64,000 bases of DNA from Heteronotia binoei (Eukaryota): positions 9,796,001 to 9,860,000 of the forward strand of contig NC_083226.1 in NCBI RefSeq assembly GCF_032191835.1, read 5' to 3'. This document shows positions 46,901-58,900 of this stretch, piece by piece. Position 1 is the stretch's first letter. Every line of letters starts with the position of its first letter. Made by a program: the position numbers.

Positions 46901-49900
46901 ATGAGGAACAATTCACAAGCACTCTTTGGGTGCGATCTGTCAACCAGTTAGAAGATGAAGAAGGTGGAGATATTGGATTTATATCCCGCCCTCCACTCTG
47001 AAGAGTCTCAGAGCGGCTCACAATCTCCTTTACCTCCCCCCCCCCCACAACAGACACCCTGTGAGGTAGATGAAGATATTGGATTTATATCCCACCCTCC
47101 ACTCCGAAGAGTCTCAGAGCGGCTCACAATCTTCTTTATCTTCCTCCCCCACAACAGACACCCTGTGAAGTGGGTGGGGCTGGAGAGGGCTCTCACAGCA
47201 GCTGGCCTTTCAAGGACAGAGTCTCAGAGCGGCTCACAATCTCCTTTACCTTCCTCCCCCCCAACAGACACCCTGTGAGGTTAAGTCCGCACACTTAACC
47301 ACTACACCAAACTGGCTGTCCTACAGATAGGGTGACCATAATGTCTGAAGGCCAGCCAGGGACACCTTGGGGGAGAAGGGGGGAGGCAGGGGTGCGCGCG
47401 CGAAGCACGCGCAGGGACGCTCCCTCCCTCACTCGCCGCCTTCCCCGCCGGCGCCCGCGGCCCACCGCCTCCGGGGCTGGCTAAACCGGGACCTCTAAAT
47501 GGTCCCGGTATAGCCAGCCCGGGAGGCGGGAATAGGGGGCCAGAACCGGGACATTCCCGGGCGCCCGGGACGGTCTGGCCACCCTACCTACAGATCCACC
47601 TAACGATAACAGGATCCAAACCTGTTATTCATCTTGATCCTGGATTCCTTGGAATTCCATCTTTGCTGCCCAATTCTTCTCTTCCAAGGATAGCATGTCT
47701 CTTATTCTATGTTAGTGTCACCACCACCAAAGGTCCATAACCTCATGGATGACTTGGGGAAAGTCTGGGGTATCCCAGCCAGGGGTGGAATTCTAGCAGG
47801 AGCTCCTTTGCATATTAGGTCGCACACCCCTGACGTAGCCAATCCTCCAAGAGCTTACAAAAAAAGAGCCTTGTAAGCTCTTGGAGGATTGGCAACGTCA
47901 GGGGTGTGTGGCCTAATATGCAAAGGAACTCCTGCTAGAATTCCACCCCTGATCCCAGTCCTACAGCATGCGGTATACTCTATACTCCTATGATTATCCC
48001 AAATATGCTTGCAAATCTTTTAAGGAAAAAAGCAACTACTTCTGTCGCCGGCTGCGCTACTCAGATGTATACGTTCCTGGCCTTTGGAGACACAAACTGT
48101 CTGCTTCTTACAATGATGGGGTTTGACCGATATGTGTCCATATGTAAACCTTTACATTACAGTGCCGCCCACTGCCCAACAAATAGGGTAGGCTTTGGCG
48201 TTCCAGATACCAGGCACATTAGAAAGCAACAAGCCTGCTGCGTGCCTAATTGCCTGTCACTGGGGACAGCAACTGATCAGAGGGGTCTGTCCAACACGGG
48301 GGGGGGGGGGGTCTGCTTCAACACAACTGTTGATGTGATGGAGGGGAGGGATTTCTTCACCATCTTTCTGACTCCTCAAAGAACTTGTTATGTCAGCTCT
48401 CATTGACACTGTAATGGCTAATGAGTGTAACCTCTCAAATGCAATAGAGATAATATCCCAGAGGATTTAGAAACTTGTTTACAGTGTTTCGTGCTTTGTA
48501 AATGCCATATAAAAGCAGGGTATTGTGGCAAAATTCTGTCCTTTGGAATGGAATCCAACAGCTCACCTCCACGTAAGAAATCTGTTTTCTATATTCCTTC
48601 TTGATTCAAAAATGATGTGGCCTCTGTTTCACTAGTGGTTTGTATGAATGTCATGCCAAAAGGCACTCTATACGCTTGGTAGCTGAATACTTCCCTTGCA
48701 TGCAAAAGGCTCCAGCTTCTTTTCCTGGCACCATCAGTTCAGAGAGCTCTTAATTAGTGGGGCTGAGAAGACCTCCACAAACGACTTAGGAGAACTGCTG
48801 CAGCAGTCTGGAATAGACAACATTCAGAGGATGGATTCTTATTCAAAGACAGATTCAGAGAGGATCTCAGGTTAATAGTCCAAAATGGCAGGAGATGATT
48901 TCCTAATGCATTCAGTCTTGGGCCATTCAGGGCTGCCCAGAGCCACTGTGGGCCCCAGGACAGAGATTCCATCTGCCTCCTTTGACCCTGATCCAAAATC
49001 AAAAGCATAACATATTGAATTTCTAGGCTTCCTCATACTGTGACCATTGATGTCTCCATGTGTCCATGGCACCTTTCAGATGTGGGCATGACAACCATGT
49101 CCTCTTAGGATGCAGATGTCTGACCACCAGAGCAAAAGCAGGAAGAGATATCTTCAGACTCCCTTAGTGATATGTCTTCTGGATCAACATCATAAGCTCA
49201 TTCATTTTACTTTTTTTGCCACTGAGTTGGTACCTTATCATCACCATGAATTAATAAGCTGTCACTCCAAAGAGAGGCATTTTGGCTCTACACTTTGGAT
49301 TCTCTGCACCCAAAGGTCTTCAGTGATTGTTTATATCAGGGCATCTGCCTGACCTTCTGTGGTGCCTTCAGTTGTCCCTGATTGTCTAGCACCGCAACTC
49401 ACAACAGAGTTAGTGAGGGAAGGCCAAATGAAACAAAGAAGCCTTCATCCATTGGTGGAAGACAACGATAATACATCCGTCTCCTTGGGGAGGGAGTTCC
49501 AAGGCCCCTTTCTTGGGTTCCCTCTAGGCTTGCTAACCTCCCAGTGGGGCCTGGAGATCTCCCAAAATTGCAACTGATTTCCAGACTACAGAGATCAGCT
49601 CTCCTGGAGGAAATGGGTGCTTCGGAGGGTGGACTCTATGGCATTATACCCCACTGAGGTCCCTCCCCAAACCCCACAACATAATATCATTATATTGGTA
49701 TAATTTTATAACAAACACATGCACCAAAATTTCTGAATTTTAATTCCCCCCCCGCAAACTATGTCTCTATCCCCTTCTGTTGCAGATATATCTAAACATC
49801 TTTATAAATGAATTGAATTAAAAATAGAGGGAATGTTTATTAAATTTGCCGATGATACTAAATTGTGAGGAGTTGTGAATACAGTAGAAGACAGAGACAG

Positions 49901-55900: not shown

Positions 55901-58900
55901 AGGCGGCTGCGAGACGCTTGTGGTCAACTGAGTGTTTGAAGGGCTTGGCTGCACGGCAGGGGGAACACGGGGTGGTTTCCACCCCTCCGGGTCCCCTAGG
56001 CAGTGTAGGGGCCGCCTGGAGTTCGGACAGCACTATTGCACTTTGAGAATGCCCACACTCTGAATACACTCTGCACTTTGAGAACGTCCACGCTCTAAGC
56101 ACACTCTGCACTTTAAGTACTGCAGCGCTTTTACCCAGTACCTTTTTAACTCTAACCTGATCTTCACTGCTAATGTATCAAGATTGAACTGCTGACTGCT
56201 AAATGAATTGTTAATGAAATTTTATTGGTTAATTGATTTGGATTACTGATTAATTGACTGGCTATTTGATGAATCTTATATCTTTGGCAAATTAATTGGG
56301 AAGGGTAATCGATTGGGAGGGGTTTTTTACAATTAAGAAACCAGTAGAATTAATTAAATTTTTAGCTAATGAATTAAAGGGAAGATTATGGGGTGGGGTC
56401 TTTTAGATTAAATTAACTATTAGATAAATTATTAGCAGGGTAGCCTAAATTGAGAATTGATTGATCGGCGTGAGAAGAGAGGGTTGGGGAGTGGAGTAGG
56501 GTGGTGAACTGGGCCTATCTATAACAGGTCTGAGGCTGTGGCGGAGACTGGCAGGGGATGACCAGCCTGGGGATTCCAGTACTCCTGGGGAGGGGAAGGT
56601 ATGACGGTGGGAACAGACAGAATTATAAGGGAAGGAAGGCCGAGACATGATAGTGCTCGGCCCCCTTCCAGCCTGTGTCCCATCCCGACGGTGCCACATT
56701 CTGGCACCATGTTCTAATATTCATCTTAATCCTGGATTCCTTGGAATTCCATCTTTGCTGCCAAATTCCTCTCTTCCAAGGATAGTGTGTCTCTTATCCT
56801 ATGTTAGTGTCACCACCATCAAAGGGTCCATAGCCTCATGGATGACTTGGGGAAAGTCTGGGGTATCCCAGCCAGGGGTGGAATTCTAGCAGGAGCTCCT
56901 TTGCATATTAGGTTGCACACCCCTGATGTAGCTCTCATTGACACTGTAATGGCTAATGAGTGTAACCTCTCAAATACAATAGAGATAATATCCCAGAGGA
57001 TTTAGAAACTTGTTTACAGTGTTTCGTGCTTTGTAAATGCCATATAAAAGAAGGGTATTGTGGCAAAATTCTGTCCTTTGGAATGGAATCCAACAGCTCA
57101 CCTCCACGTAAGAAATCTGTTTTCTATATTCCTTCTTGATTCAAAAATGATGTGGCCTCTGTTTCACTAGTGGTTTGTATGAATGTCATGCCAAAAGGCA
57201 CTCTATATGCTTGGTAGCTGAATACTTCCCTTGCATGCAAAAGGCTCCAGCTTCTTTTCCTGGCACCATCAGTTCAGAGAGCTCTTAATTAGTGGGGCTG
57301 AGAAGACCTCCACAAATGACTTAGGAGAACTGCCGCAGCAGTCTGGAATAGACAACATTCAGAAGATGGATTCTTATTCAAAGACAGATTCAGAGAGGAT
57401 CTCAGGTTAATAGTCCAGAATGGCAGGAGATGATTTCCTAATGCATTCAGTCTTGGGCCATTCAGGGCTGCCCAGAGCCACTGTGGGCCCCAGGACAGAG
57501 ATTCCATCTGCCTCCTTTGACCCTGATCCAAAATCAAAAGCATAACATATTGAATTTCTAGGCTTCCTCATACTGTGACCATTGATGTCTCCATGTGTCC
57601 ATGGCACCTTTCAGATGTGGGCATGACAACCATGTCCTCTTAGGATGCAGATGTCTGACCACCAGAGCAAAAGCAGGAAGAGATATCTTCAGACTCCTTT
57701 AGTGATATGTCTTCTGGATCAACATCATAAGCTCATTCATTTTACTTTTTTGCCACTGAGTTGGTACCTTATCATCACCATGAATTAATAAGCTGTCACT
57801 CCAAAGAGAGGCATTATGATTATAGGATAGAGGAGACTTGCCTGGGTGGTAGTCTGTGTGAAAAGGATGTAGGGGTCTTAGTGGACCATACGCTGAACAT
57901 GAGTCAACAGTGTGATGTGGTGGCTAAAAAGGCAAATGCAATTTTGGGCTGTATCAACAGAAGTATAGTGTCCAGATCACATGAAGTGATGATGGTATCG
58001 CTTTACTCTGCTCTGGTAAGACCTCACCTGGAGTATTGTGTTCAGTTTTGGACACCACATTTTAAGAAGGATATAGACAAGCTGGAACGGGTCCAGAGGA
58101 GGGCAACGAAGATGGTGAGGGGTCTGGAGACCAAGTCCTATGAGGAAAGGCTGAAGGAGCTGGGCATGTTTAGCTAGGAGAGGAGGTTGCTGAGAGGTGA
58201 TATGATCACCATCTTCAAGTACTTGAAGGGTTGTCCTATAGAAGATGGTGTGGAATTGTTTTCTGTGACCCCAGGAGGTAGGACCAGAACCAATGGGTTG
58301 CGATTAAATCAAAAGAGTTTCCGGCTCAACATTAGAAAGAACTTCCTGACAGTCAGAGCAGTTCCTCAGTGGAATAGGCTTCCTCGGGAGGTTTGAGATT
58401 GGGGCCTGTCTGTGGGCAAGGAAATGTTTGCCCCACAGCACTCATGAAAGAGAACCGTCATTATTGCTGATGATGTATTGAATGTTTTTGAGTTTAGAGT
58501 GGTACGTAACCTAGACAACATGATCACTGGACCTAAAAATATCAGCTACACCATCTCAGGCTCATTTAGTTGTTCATTTTCTAACATTGTATATGCCATT
58601 AAATGCCAACAATACCCTTCAGTTCTCTACATAGGGCAAAGTGGTCACACTCTACGCCTAAACGGGCACAAATCTGATATAAAAAAACACAAAACTGAGA
58701 AACCTGTAGAACATTTCAGCCTCCTAGGACATTCAGTTCGGGACCTCGGAGTAGCTGTTTTATTGAAAAAGGAATTTCAGAAAGATTAGAATGAGAGATT
58801 GCTGAATTACAATACTCATGACAATGGAACCCCCCCCCCCGGGGCTTAAAAGAAATACTGGGTTCTTATCTCACTTCGCATGCTAAGTCACTCAGTTCTC

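What the first reader, a model, noticed from the sequence alone, without database searches (positions are those of the whole stretch)
48395..57815. Promoter and exon 1 of OR-e and OR-f are ~99% identical while the receptors are only ~78% identical
48395-49281 versus 56930-57815 shows 8 substitutions and 1 indel. The adjacent shared segment is ~95% identical, the following CR1 pieces roughly 90%, and the proteins differ at about 70 of 314 positions (rough count). The second copy joins by AGC microhomology inside a MITE on the left and enters a CR1 on the right. OR-f therefore appears to have recently acquired OR-e's promoter and first 8 codons (promoter/exon shuffling), which predicts similar choice frequency or zone for two different receptors.
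Basis: partly seen in the sequence, partly recalled or inferred. Interest (0 to 1): 0.68.

Follow-up and report, generated by a model that had tools for sequence, protein, structure and literature searches.

The report
Two smell-receptor genes share one promoter
Two neighbouring olfactory receptor genes whose proteins differ at about a quarter of their positions carry almost identical copies of the family's promoter and first exon, because that piece of DNA was copied from one gene to the other long after the genes themselves diverged.

Summary
48398-49281 and 56933-57815 differ by 8 substitutions and one 1-bp indel in 884 columns. The receptors differ at 71 of 314 residues, with dS 0.495. The repeat is not a transposon. 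It is the family's own 5' module: homeodomain-like and O/E-like sites, a TATA box, a short first exon with an ATG and GT donor, and about 0.7 kb of intron 1. It occurs once upstream of OR-b, c, d, e and f. The other nine module pairs are 61-75% identical. OR-e's copy lies in ancestral context. OR-f's copy lies in a 1.7-kb OR-e-derived patch cut off at both ends. The patch has two age layers: an inner tract of about 1 kb (11/997 differences) and outer parts (52/676). So OR-f probably already had an e-type 5' end, and a later non-allelic exchange re-homogenised it. Whether the 8 codons are translated, and whether OR-f uses this promoter, is untested. No orthologues, reads or transcripts were available. 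This is an ordinary kind of event in chemoreceptor clusters, though a clean natural promoter swap.

The parts
48393..49281 (+). Copy 1 of the near-identical block (B1): OR-e proximal promoter, exon 1 and about 0.7 kb of intron 1
   Evidence: 98.9-99.0% to 56933-57815; homologous modules upstream of OR-b, c, d
56933..57815 (+). Copy 2 of the block (B2), 2.1 kb upstream of the OR-f coding exon
48412..48515 (+). OR-e core promoter motifs: homeodomain-like TAATGG/TAATGA (48412, 48419), O/E-like TCCCAGAGGA (48456), TATA box (48508)
   Evidence: The O/E-like and TATA positions are conserved in the paralogue alignment. No binding was tested.
56947..57050 (+). The same motifs in the OR-f copy (56947, 56954, 56991, 57043). 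Only about 110 bp upstream of the TATA box are retained.
48538..48572 (+). Predicted OR-e exon 1. The start is inferred at about 30 nt after the TATA box. ATG at 48548, 8 codons plus 1 nt, GT donor at 48573.
   Evidence: ATG and donor are conserved in c, d, e, f. No transcript evidence.
57073..57107 (+). Predicted OR-f exon 1 (ATG 57083, GT donor 57108), identical to OR-e's
51206..52161 (+). OR-e coding exon (acceptor AG 51204-51205, 11 nt, ATG 51217, 314 aa)
   Evidence: (7tm_4, E 7e-52)
59916..60871 (+). OR-f coding exon (acceptor AG 59914-59915, 11 nt, ATG 59927, 314 aa)
   Evidence: 7tm_4, E 2e-49
47626..47839 (+). Segment A, copy 1: unique DNA plus the left arm of the palindromic MITE. 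47626-47740 is old-layer; 47741-47839 is probably young-layer.
56718..56932 (+). Segment A, copy 2. It ends inside the MITE left arm at the AGC junction.
47780..47951 (.). 172-bp palindromic MITE (81-nt arms, 95% complementary, 10-nt spacer) flanked by ATCCCAG. Only bases 1-60 are present in copy 2 (56873-56932).
47980..48159 (+). OR-d-type coding fragment, present only in copy 1
   Evidence: 167/180 to OR-d
48231..48392 (+). X: ancestral upstream DNA of the module (homologous to 18695-18850 upstream of OR-c). Absent from copy 2.
   Evidence: E 6e-13
49282..50008 (+). Copy-1-only stretch: intron DNA with an interspersed repeat, plus the 5' part of the LINE
50009..50745 (+). LINE (CR1-like, named by recall) in copy 1, running to its 3' end. 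50009-50581 is shared with copy 2.
57817..58392 (+). LINE fragment in copy 2, cut at both ends (old layer, 43 differences in 574 columns)
30560..30778 (+). Homologous promoter/exon-1 module upstream of OR-d
18863..19055 (+). Homologous module upstream of OR-c
13468..13695 (+). Homologous but decayed module upstream of OR-b (ATG and GT donor lost)

Best explanation
The 0.89-kb repeat is the 5' module of this olfactory receptor family. It comprises a proximal promoter (homeodomain-like and O/E-like sites about 50-95 bp upstream of a TATA box), a first exon of about 35 nt with an ATG and a GT donor, and the first 0.7 kb of intron 1. The exon is predicted to splice to a conserved acceptor 11 nt before the receptor's ATG, 2.6-2.8 kb downstream.

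OR-f's 5' region (56718-58392) is a patch copied from OR-e's upstream region. The patch lies 1.5 kb upstream of OR-f's coding exon, and it was copied long after the two coding exons diverged. It has two age layers. An older ectopic copy is now about 7.7% diverged. It includes a shared palindromic MITE insertion on the left and a LINE fragment on the right, and it gave OR-f an e-type 5' end. A later non-allelic exchange between the two copies re-homogenised about 1 kb centred on the promoter and exon 1, which is now 1.1% diverged. That exchange was either gene conversion or break repair templated on the paralogue and finished by end joining. Deletions at the palindrome (AGC overlap) and inside the LINE (one filler base) removed 553 and 727 bp from the OR-f copy.

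Shown: the anatomy, the homology of the module, the age layers and the junctions. Inferred: promoter activity, splicing, the order of events, and that the two receptors therefore share promoter-determined expression properties.
For: The repeat is real. The module has five homologues, one upstream of each of OR-b to OR-f in the same orientation, and a profile search of the whole window finds no other. The alignment shows a conserved O/E-like site, TATA region, ATG and GT donor, and a conserved acceptor in 6 of 6 genes. Module identity is 213/219 for e-f in that alignment, which includes a few non-homologous columns, against 61-75% for the other nine pairs. Coding dS is 0.41-0.62 for all pairs except a-b. 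A two-rate change-point model beats one rate by 2dlnL = 49, with 11/997 differences inside and 52/676 outside. Fisher tests give B vs A p = 4e-4 and B vs C p = 9e-11. 5 of the 11 differences in the tract are CpG transitions. Copy 1 continues upstream into DNA homologous to OR-c's upstream region. Copy 2 holds a truncated palindrome and a LINE piece lacking both ends. The block contains no Pfam domain, no Rfam family, no terminal repeats and no further copies in the window. Precedent: homogenisation of V1R promoter regions by gene conversion has been proposed (PMC1955453, passages). A review reports that about 300 bp of OR promoter suffice for OR-like expression (PMC12547500, passages). O/E, homeodomain and TATA motifs are enriched at OR start sites (PMC3247239, passages).
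Against: The left limit of the young tract is only moderately resolved: 2/99 vs 9/116, Fisher p = 0.068, and 2.47 lnL against placing it at the junction. The right limit coincides exactly with a non-homologous junction, which is not what a simple conversion tract inside continuous homology would give. The two LINE pieces (92%) are only a little closer to each other than to another LINE copy in the window (88%). They could therefore be independent insertions, which would weaken the right half of the 'older layer'. No orthologous locus, long read, transcript or population data could be consulted, so direction, timing, promoter use and splicing all remain inference. The O/E-like sites are one-mismatch variants of the recalled consensus, and binding is untested.
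Confidence: 0.6

Rival explanations
1. One reading: one recent event copied only the 0.89-kb block from OR-e. It was pasted by microhomology-mediated end joining between a pre-existing MITE (AGC overlap) and a pre-existing, independently inserted CR1-type LINE upstream of OR-f, replacing OR-f's own promoter.
For: Both ends of the block in copy 2 are non-homologous junctions with 3-nt and 0-2-nt overlaps. Divergence jumps immediately to the right of the junction, with 7 differences in the first 40 bp of the LINE. The LINE pieces are not much closer to each other than to a third copy. No other module is found near OR-f.
Against: Segment A, with the same MITE at the same site, lies next to the block in both loci. 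An older e-derived layer therefore exists on the left at least. The last 99 bp before the AGC junction carry only 2 CpG transitions, where about 7.6 differences are expected at the old-layer rate. The LINE piece in copy 2 lacks its 3' end, so it is not an intact independent insertion. A-left (7.8%) and the LINE (7.5%) have the same divergence.
Confidence: 0.25
2. Assembly artefact: the second copy is a mis-joined haplotype or a collapsed or duplicated stretch, not a real paralogue.
For: About 1% divergence is within the range of heterozygosity in some species. Nothing in the window alone can exclude it.
Against: The window has no N and no gap. The block is embedded between different, specific sequences with clean junctions inside repeats. 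Its flanks form a graded, colinear older layer. The differences include CpG decay typical of paralogues.
Confidence: 0.06
3. Ancient duplicates kept 99% identical by purifying selection on the promoter and exon 1.
For: The block contains motifs that are conserved among paralogues.
Against: About 700 of the 884 bp are intron. The same module is only 61-75% identical in the other nine pairs, and intron homology fades within about 0.3-0.5 kb. Identity is uniform at 97-100% in every 100-bp window.
Confidence: 0.02
4. The block is a young mobile element that inserted independently upstream of both genes.
For: There are two near-identical copies in a repeat-rich region.
Against: It has no terminal inverted or direct repeats, no target-site duplication, no poly-A and no coding capacity. 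It has diverged homologues at the equivalent place of three other paralogues. Copy 1 is continuous with ancestral upstream DNA.
Confidence: 0.02

Closest known systems
Homogenised promoter regions of mouse V1R vomeronasal receptor subfamilies (Stewart and Lane 2007, PMC1955453; passages read)
   Same: Tandem chemoreceptor genes have a coding exon plus short upstream exon(s). A 0.5-1-kb upstream block containing the start site is better conserved between paralogues than expected, and the authors propose gene conversion. The size of the block here fits their 'feasible target size'.
   Different: This case is a class II odorant receptor cluster of a non-mammalian vertebrate. It involves one pair only, with an extreme contrast (99% promoter against 83% coding DNA). 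The tract ends are visible, one of them a non-homologous junction, and there are two nested age layers.
Gene conversion between odorant receptor paralogues (Sharon et al. 1999, as cited in PMC1995454; passages read; original paper not seen)
   Same: Non-allelic sequence exchange inside an OR cluster rich in retrotransposons.
   Different: The reported cases concern coding regions (mosaic or homogenised receptors). Here the coding exons are untouched, with no window above 91% identity, and only the 5' module was exchanged.
Mouse OR proximal promoters: O/E plus homeodomain sites, sometimes a TATA box, non-coding first exon (PMC3247239; PMC12547500; PMC3247230; passages)
   Same: An O/E-like and a homeodomain-like site lie within about 100 bp upstream of a TATA box, followed by a short first exon spliced to a single coding exon.
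   Different: No start site is mapped here. The O/E-like sites deviate by one base from the recalled palindromic consensus. The first exon carries an in-frame ATG that would add 12 residues, which is not the usual mammalian arrangement.
Break repair coupling homologous copying with end joining, or microhomology-mediated templated insertion (general knowledge, recalled; no paper read)
   Same: The copied tract is bounded by junctions with 0-3 nt of overlap. One junction lies inside a long palindrome, a structure prone to breakage.
   Different: Nothing here shows the repair pathway. The junctions could equally be later, independent deletions.

Membership tests
Vertebrate odorant receptor (Pfam 7tm_4), class II | Significant match to the olfactory receptor profile over the whole seven-helix core, with an intact reading frame of about 310 aa | tested here: met
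   OR-e E 7e-52 and OR-f E 2e-49 on PF13853, residues 31-305. Six intact ORFs of 312-314 aa.
Vertebrate odorant receptor (Pfam 7tm_4), class II | Closer to class II than to class I receptors | tested here: met
   The best solved relatives are OR6/OR5/OR2/OR1-type receptors (E 1e-95 to 1e-89), against OR51/OR52 at E 1e-43 or weaker.
Vertebrate odorant receptor (Pfam 7tm_4), class II | Expression in olfactory sensory neurons | not testable with these tools
   No transcript data were available.
OR-type proximal promoter | O/E (Olf/Ebf) site within a few hundred bp upstream of the start site | tested here: inconclusive
   A TCCYNNRGGR site lies at the same alignment column in 5 of 5 modules, about 50 bp upstream of the TATA box. 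Each deviates from the recalled consensus TCCCNNGGGA by 1-2 bases. Binding was not tested.
OR-type proximal promoter | Homeodomain (TAAT-core) site near the O/E site | tested here: inconclusive
   TAATGA is present in d, e and f upstream of the O/E-like site. In b and c, TAAT-core matches occur only elsewhere in the module.
OR-type proximal promoter | Mapped transcription start site | not testable with these tools
   Only a TATA box (48508 / 57043) and a downstream GT donor suggest it.
OR-type proximal promoter | Conservation among paralogues above the surrounding non-coding DNA | tested here: met
   The module is the only upstream stretch detectable between b, c, d and e (nhmmer E 3e-16 to 8e-33). 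Homology fades within about 0.3-0.5 kb.
Non-allelic (interlocus) gene conversion tract | A stretch of much higher identity flanked on both sides by older paralogous sequence | tested here: met
   11/997 inside against 52/676 outside, 2dlnL = 49.
Non-allelic (interlocus) gene conversion tract | Tract ends lie within continuous homology | tested here: inconclusive
   The left end is probably inside segment A at about 47741 (support 47732-47770), but the junction is only 2.47 lnL worse. The right end coincides with a non-homologous junction.
Non-allelic (interlocus) gene conversion tract | Paralogues within the species more alike than orthologues between species | not testable with these tools
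Microhomology-mediated duplication or templated insertion | Junctions with a few bases of overlap or filler and no target-site duplication | tested here: met
   AGC overlap on the left. One extra base, then a TG shared with the LINE, on the right.
Transposable element | Terminal repeats, target-site duplication, coding capacity or many copies | tested here: not met
   None were seen in the sequence. No Pfam domain was found in the 2 ORFs of the block that were scanned. There are only two close copies in the window.
Exon shuffling that changes the protein | The transferred exon is coding and in frame with the recipient | tested here: inconclusive
   Read exon by exon, the phase fits (25 nt after the ATG, then 11 nt before the canonical ATG) and the frame is open in c, d, e and f. 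It is closed by TAA in a and b, and only MES is conserved.

The most novel reading that the evidence does not exclude
The promoter/exon-1 module behaves as a cassette that is repeatedly copied between receptors of this cluster, independently of their coding exons. In support, there are two nested transfers at the same place, plus an OR-d coding fragment pasted just upstream of OR-e's promoter. This would be concerted evolution of OR promoters, possibly favoured because it equalises the choice probability of different receptors. The e/f pair would then be a natural promoter-swap experiment outside mammals, and the module might also add a 12-residue N-terminal extension to the receptor.
Probability: 0.2. 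Interest if true: 0.55.

Novelty: new member of a known kind. Interest (0 to 1): 0.35.

Why it matters
How far the proximal promoter alone sets the frequency and position of olfactory receptor choice is still debated, and it has mostly been tested with mouse transgenes. Here two receptors that differ at 71 of 314 residues sit 8.7 kb apart in one cluster and carry the same promoter and first exon. The OR-f copy lacks everything more than about 110 bp upstream of the TATA box. Comparing how often and where the two are expressed would therefore separate the contribution of the core promoter from that of the coding sequence and of more distal DNA. For genome evolution, it is a clean example of regulatory and coding parts of tandem paralogues having different histories. 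Dating duplications from either part alone would mislead.

Tried and rejected
1. Retro-copy of a spliced transcript as the origin of copy 2. Reading the left junction shows that a GT-AG intron cannot produce the observed join, because four extra bases remain. It would also not explain the age layers. Rejected.

2. Segment A-left as a decayed 5' part of an OR pseudogene. Local alignment against the six coding exons scored within the range of 200 shuffles (best z = 4.4, below the null maximum). Only a 20-nt match was found at its left edge. Inconclusive and dropped.

3. A hidden gene in the block. Two ORFs in it (92 aa on the minus strand, 86 aa on the plus strand) gave no Pfam family at E up to 1. 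Rfam found nothing at gathering score in 44000-64000.

4. A relic of an original OR-f promoter. A profile of the five modules finds only those five in the whole window. None was found between 52200 and 59900 apart from B2, and none upstream of OR-a.

5. Gene conversion in the coding exons of e and f. No 90-nt window exceeds 91% identity.

6. Naming the repeats by Pfam. The LINE C-terminal pieces and the putative GIY-YIG remnant gave no family. 'CR1-like' and 'Penelope-like' therefore rest on recall. The LINE nature rests on the long reading frame with the FADD motif and on a match to an ORF that hits RVT_1.

7. Literature. Searches listed no paper describing promoter-only exchange between odorant receptor genes. 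Only listings and the passages cited were read, and the library is incomplete.

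
Full report
**Setting**

The window has no N, 46% G+C and CpG observed/expected 0.34. It holds six intact receptor ORFs on the plus strand:
- a: 5012-5950
- b: 14834-15772
- c: 22351-23295
- d: 37230-38174
- e: 51217-52161
- f: 59927-60871

OR-e and OR-f match the Pfam olfactory receptor profile (E 7e-52 and 2e-49). OR-e's closest solved relatives are class II receptors. Between the genes lie Ty3/Gypsy-type elements with long ORFs, LINE pieces with largely open frames, MITEs and 109-110-bp satellite arrays. 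I do not take the contig for human. It looks like a non-mammalian vertebrate. I did not try to name the species.

**Observation**

- 48398-49281 vs 56933-57815 has 8 substitutions and one 1-bp indel in 884 columns. BLAST gives 98.9% over 892 columns, E = 0.
- Segment A (47626-47839 vs 56718-56932) is 94.9% identical.
- The LINE pieces (50009-50581 vs 57817-58392) are 92.2-92.6% identical.
- The coding exons are 82.7% identical, and the proteins are identical at 243 of 314 positions.
- The left junction has an AGC overlap inside a MITE. The right junction enters a LINE reading frame after one extra base.

**What the block is**

nhmmer with the first 300 bp of the block finds the other copy and three diverged homologues. 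They lie at 30562-30838 (upstream of OR-d, E 8e-33), 18882-19129 (OR-c, E 3e-26) and 13523-13692 (OR-b, E 3e-16). All are on the plus strand and 1.1-6.7 kb upstream of a coding exon. The next 200 bp also match downstream of the c and d modules. A profile of the five modules finds only these five in the window.

The alignment and a motif listing show the following, in order:
- a TAATGA homeodomain-like site (d, e, f);
- a conserved O/E-like site (TCCYNNRGGR in 5 of 5, a one- or two-base variant of the consensus I recall as TCCCNNGGGA);
- an AT-rich TATA region (TATAAAAG at 48508 and 57043);
- forty bases on, an ATG in a good context;
- 25 nt later, a CAC|GTAAG donor. ATG and donor are conserved in c, d, e and f; both are lost in b.

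All six coding exons begin with a conserved polypyrimidine-CAG acceptor followed by exactly 11 nt and the canonical ATG.

I read this model exon by exon only. I did not build, translate or search the joined sequence. Exon 1 gives eight codons plus one base: MESNSSPP in e and f, MESDSLSP in d, MESYSLLS in c. The three codons before the canonical ATG are open in c, d, e and f, but end in TAA in a and b. By phase, the exon-1 ATG is in frame in four genes and would add 12 residues. Its use is unproven. Only MES is conserved, and the ATG should lie roughly 10 nt from the cap if the TATA box is used (inference).

The architecture matches what is described for mouse OR promoters. [quoted passage not shown] About 300 bp of promoter suffice for OR-like expression (review PMC12547500, passages).

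**Discordant ages**

Module identity is 61-75% for the nine pairs other than e-f. This fits coding dS of 0.41-0.62 for every pair except a-b, which has dS 0.19. For e-f, coding dS is 0.495, while the block's Jukes-Cantor distance is 0.011, about 45-fold less. Constraint cannot explain this. About 700 of the 884 bp are intron, every 100-bp window is 97-100% identical, and in the other paralogues intron homology fades within a few hundred bases.

The block is not a mobile element. It has no terminal repeats, no target duplication and no protein domain. It has diverged homologues in the equivalent position of other genes. Rfam finds nothing in 44000-64000.

**Direction**

In copy 1 the module continues upstream into 48231-48390, which is homologous to 18695-18850. 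That stretch lies directly upstream of OR-c's module (E 6e-13). Copy 1 is therefore in its ancestral context. Copy 2 lacks this stretch. To its left is a 172-bp palindromic MITE that is complete in copy 1 (81-nt arms, 95% complementary; flanked by ATCCCAG). In copy 2 the MITE is cut after base 60 of its left arm. To its right is a LINE piece that in copy 1 extends 220 bp further 5' and 165 bp further 3' to the element's end. OR-e's region is therefore the source.

**Two layers**

A sensitive comparison of the two loci gives only four colinear plus-strand matches: A, the block, the LINE piece and the coding exon. The e-derived patch upstream of OR-f runs from 56718 to 58392. It is cut off at both ends, and the 1.5 kb from there to OR-f's coding exon has no counterpart at OR-e.

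Within the patch, differences are very unevenly spread:
- 9 in the first 116 columns of A;
- 2 in its last 99 columns, both CpG transitions;
- 9 in the 884 columns of the block;
- 43 in the 574 columns of the LINE piece, starting 14 bp from the junction.

A two-rate change-point model beats a single rate by 2dlnL = 49. It places the young tract from 47741 (support 47732-47770) to the block/LINE junction, with 11/997 differences against 52/676 outside. Fisher tests give:
- block vs A: p = 4e-4
- block vs LINE: p = 9e-11
- A vs LINE: p = 0.27
- A-left vs A-right: p = 0.068
- A-right vs block: p = 0.31

Because the same MITE sits at the same site of A in both loci, A is paralogous by duplication and not a chance repeat.

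The simplest history has three steps.
1. An older ectopic copy of OR-e's upstream region was made, from at least 47626 to 50581. It is now about 7.7% diverged and necessarily included the module.
2. A later exchange re-homogenised about 1 kb.
3. Deletions of 553 bp and 727 bp occurred in the OR-f copy.

The palindrome is a plausible break site (general knowledge). The later exchange could be gene conversion. It could also be repair synthesis that started in homology on the left and ended by end joining in the LINE.

**What speaks against this reading**

- The left change point is only moderately supported.
- The right end of the young tract coincides exactly with a non-homologous junction.
- The LINE pieces (92%) are only slightly closer to each other than to a third copy in the window (88%), so they could be independent insertions.

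An assembly artefact cannot be excluded from the window alone. It is unlikely, given gap-free sequence, specific junctions and the graded older layer.

**Comparison with what is known**

- Gene conversion between OR paralogues is known, mainly for coding regions (review PMC1995454, passages).
- For mouse V1R genes, 0.5-1-kb promoter blocks that are unusually similar between paralogues but not between orthologues led to the proposal of promoter homogenisation by gene conversion (PMC1955453, passages).

The present case is a new instance of that kind in an odorant receptor cluster. The contrast is unusually sharp and the tract ends are visible. My searches (listings only beyond the cited passages) turned up no description of a promoter-only exchange between odorant receptor genes. 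The library is incomplete and I consulted no supplementary files.

**Left unchecked**

- Orthologous loci and other copies in the same genome. No vertebrate collection was open, and the prokaryotic, phage, plasmid and E. coli collections are irrelevant and were not used.
- Long reads.
- Transcripts, start sites and splicing.
- Expression of the two receptors.

**Verdict**

OR-f does carry OR-e's promoter and first exon through post-duplication copying. It was probably acquired in an older event and refreshed recently, and both the coding status of the first exon and the functional consequence are open.

Noticed in passing
window 47980-48159: A 180-bp piece of an OR-d-type coding exon sits between the palindromic MITE and OR-e's ancestral upstream DNA. 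It matches OR-d positions 216-395 at 167/180 (92.8%) and the other five receptors at 77-81%. It is absent from the OR-f copy, and its divergence is about the same as the outer e/f layer.
   Followed up: partly
window 47780-47951 (truncated copy 56873-56932; related copy 7299-7453): A 172-bp almost perfect palindrome (81-nt arms, 95% complementary, 10-nt spacer) flanked by ATCCCAG. The e/f left junction lies inside its left arm, which suggests palindrome-triggered breakage.
   Followed up: partly
window 47329-47586: A CpG-rich MITE-like insert flanked by the direct repeat CCTACAGAT, with weak terminal inverted repeats, just upstream of segment A.
   Followed up: no
window 31184-33040, 35308-36299, 46968-47316, 61236-61651, 62738-63287: Arrays of a 109-110-bp satellite occur in both orientations, scattered between the receptor genes. 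One array lies inside OR-d's 6.4-kb first intron as modelled.
   Followed up: no
window 4935-5045, 13468-13695, 14757-14867: OR-a and OR-b carry TAA directly before the canonical ATG, in the frame of the upstream exon. OR-b's module has lost both the ATG and the GT donor. No module is found upstream of OR-a within the window. The a-b homology (90%) covers only 4862-6258 vs 14672-16101.
   Followed up: partly
window 8929-12209 (-), 44200-46128 (-), 53730-54179 (+): Ty3/Gypsy-type retrotransposon remains. The first has ORFs of 586 and 385 aa (zinc knuckle, RT, RNase H, integrase), so it is probably young. The third is decayed.
   Followed up: partly
window 58448-58789: A 113-aa ORF directly after the truncated LINE piece resembles, by recall only, the GIY-YIG endonuclease end of Penelope-type elements. 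Pfam gave no match.
   Followed up: partly
window 48757-49032 (-) and 57292-57567 (-): A 92-aa stop-to-stop ORF lies on the minus strand of the block's intron part. 3 of the 4 e/f differences inside it fall on third codon positions (chance about 0.11). There is no Pfam match, so it is probably not a gene.
   Followed up: partly
window 47626-47646: The left edge of segment A has a 20-nt match to codons about 11-17 of the receptor genes. The rest of A-left is not significantly OR-like against shuffles.
   Followed up: yes
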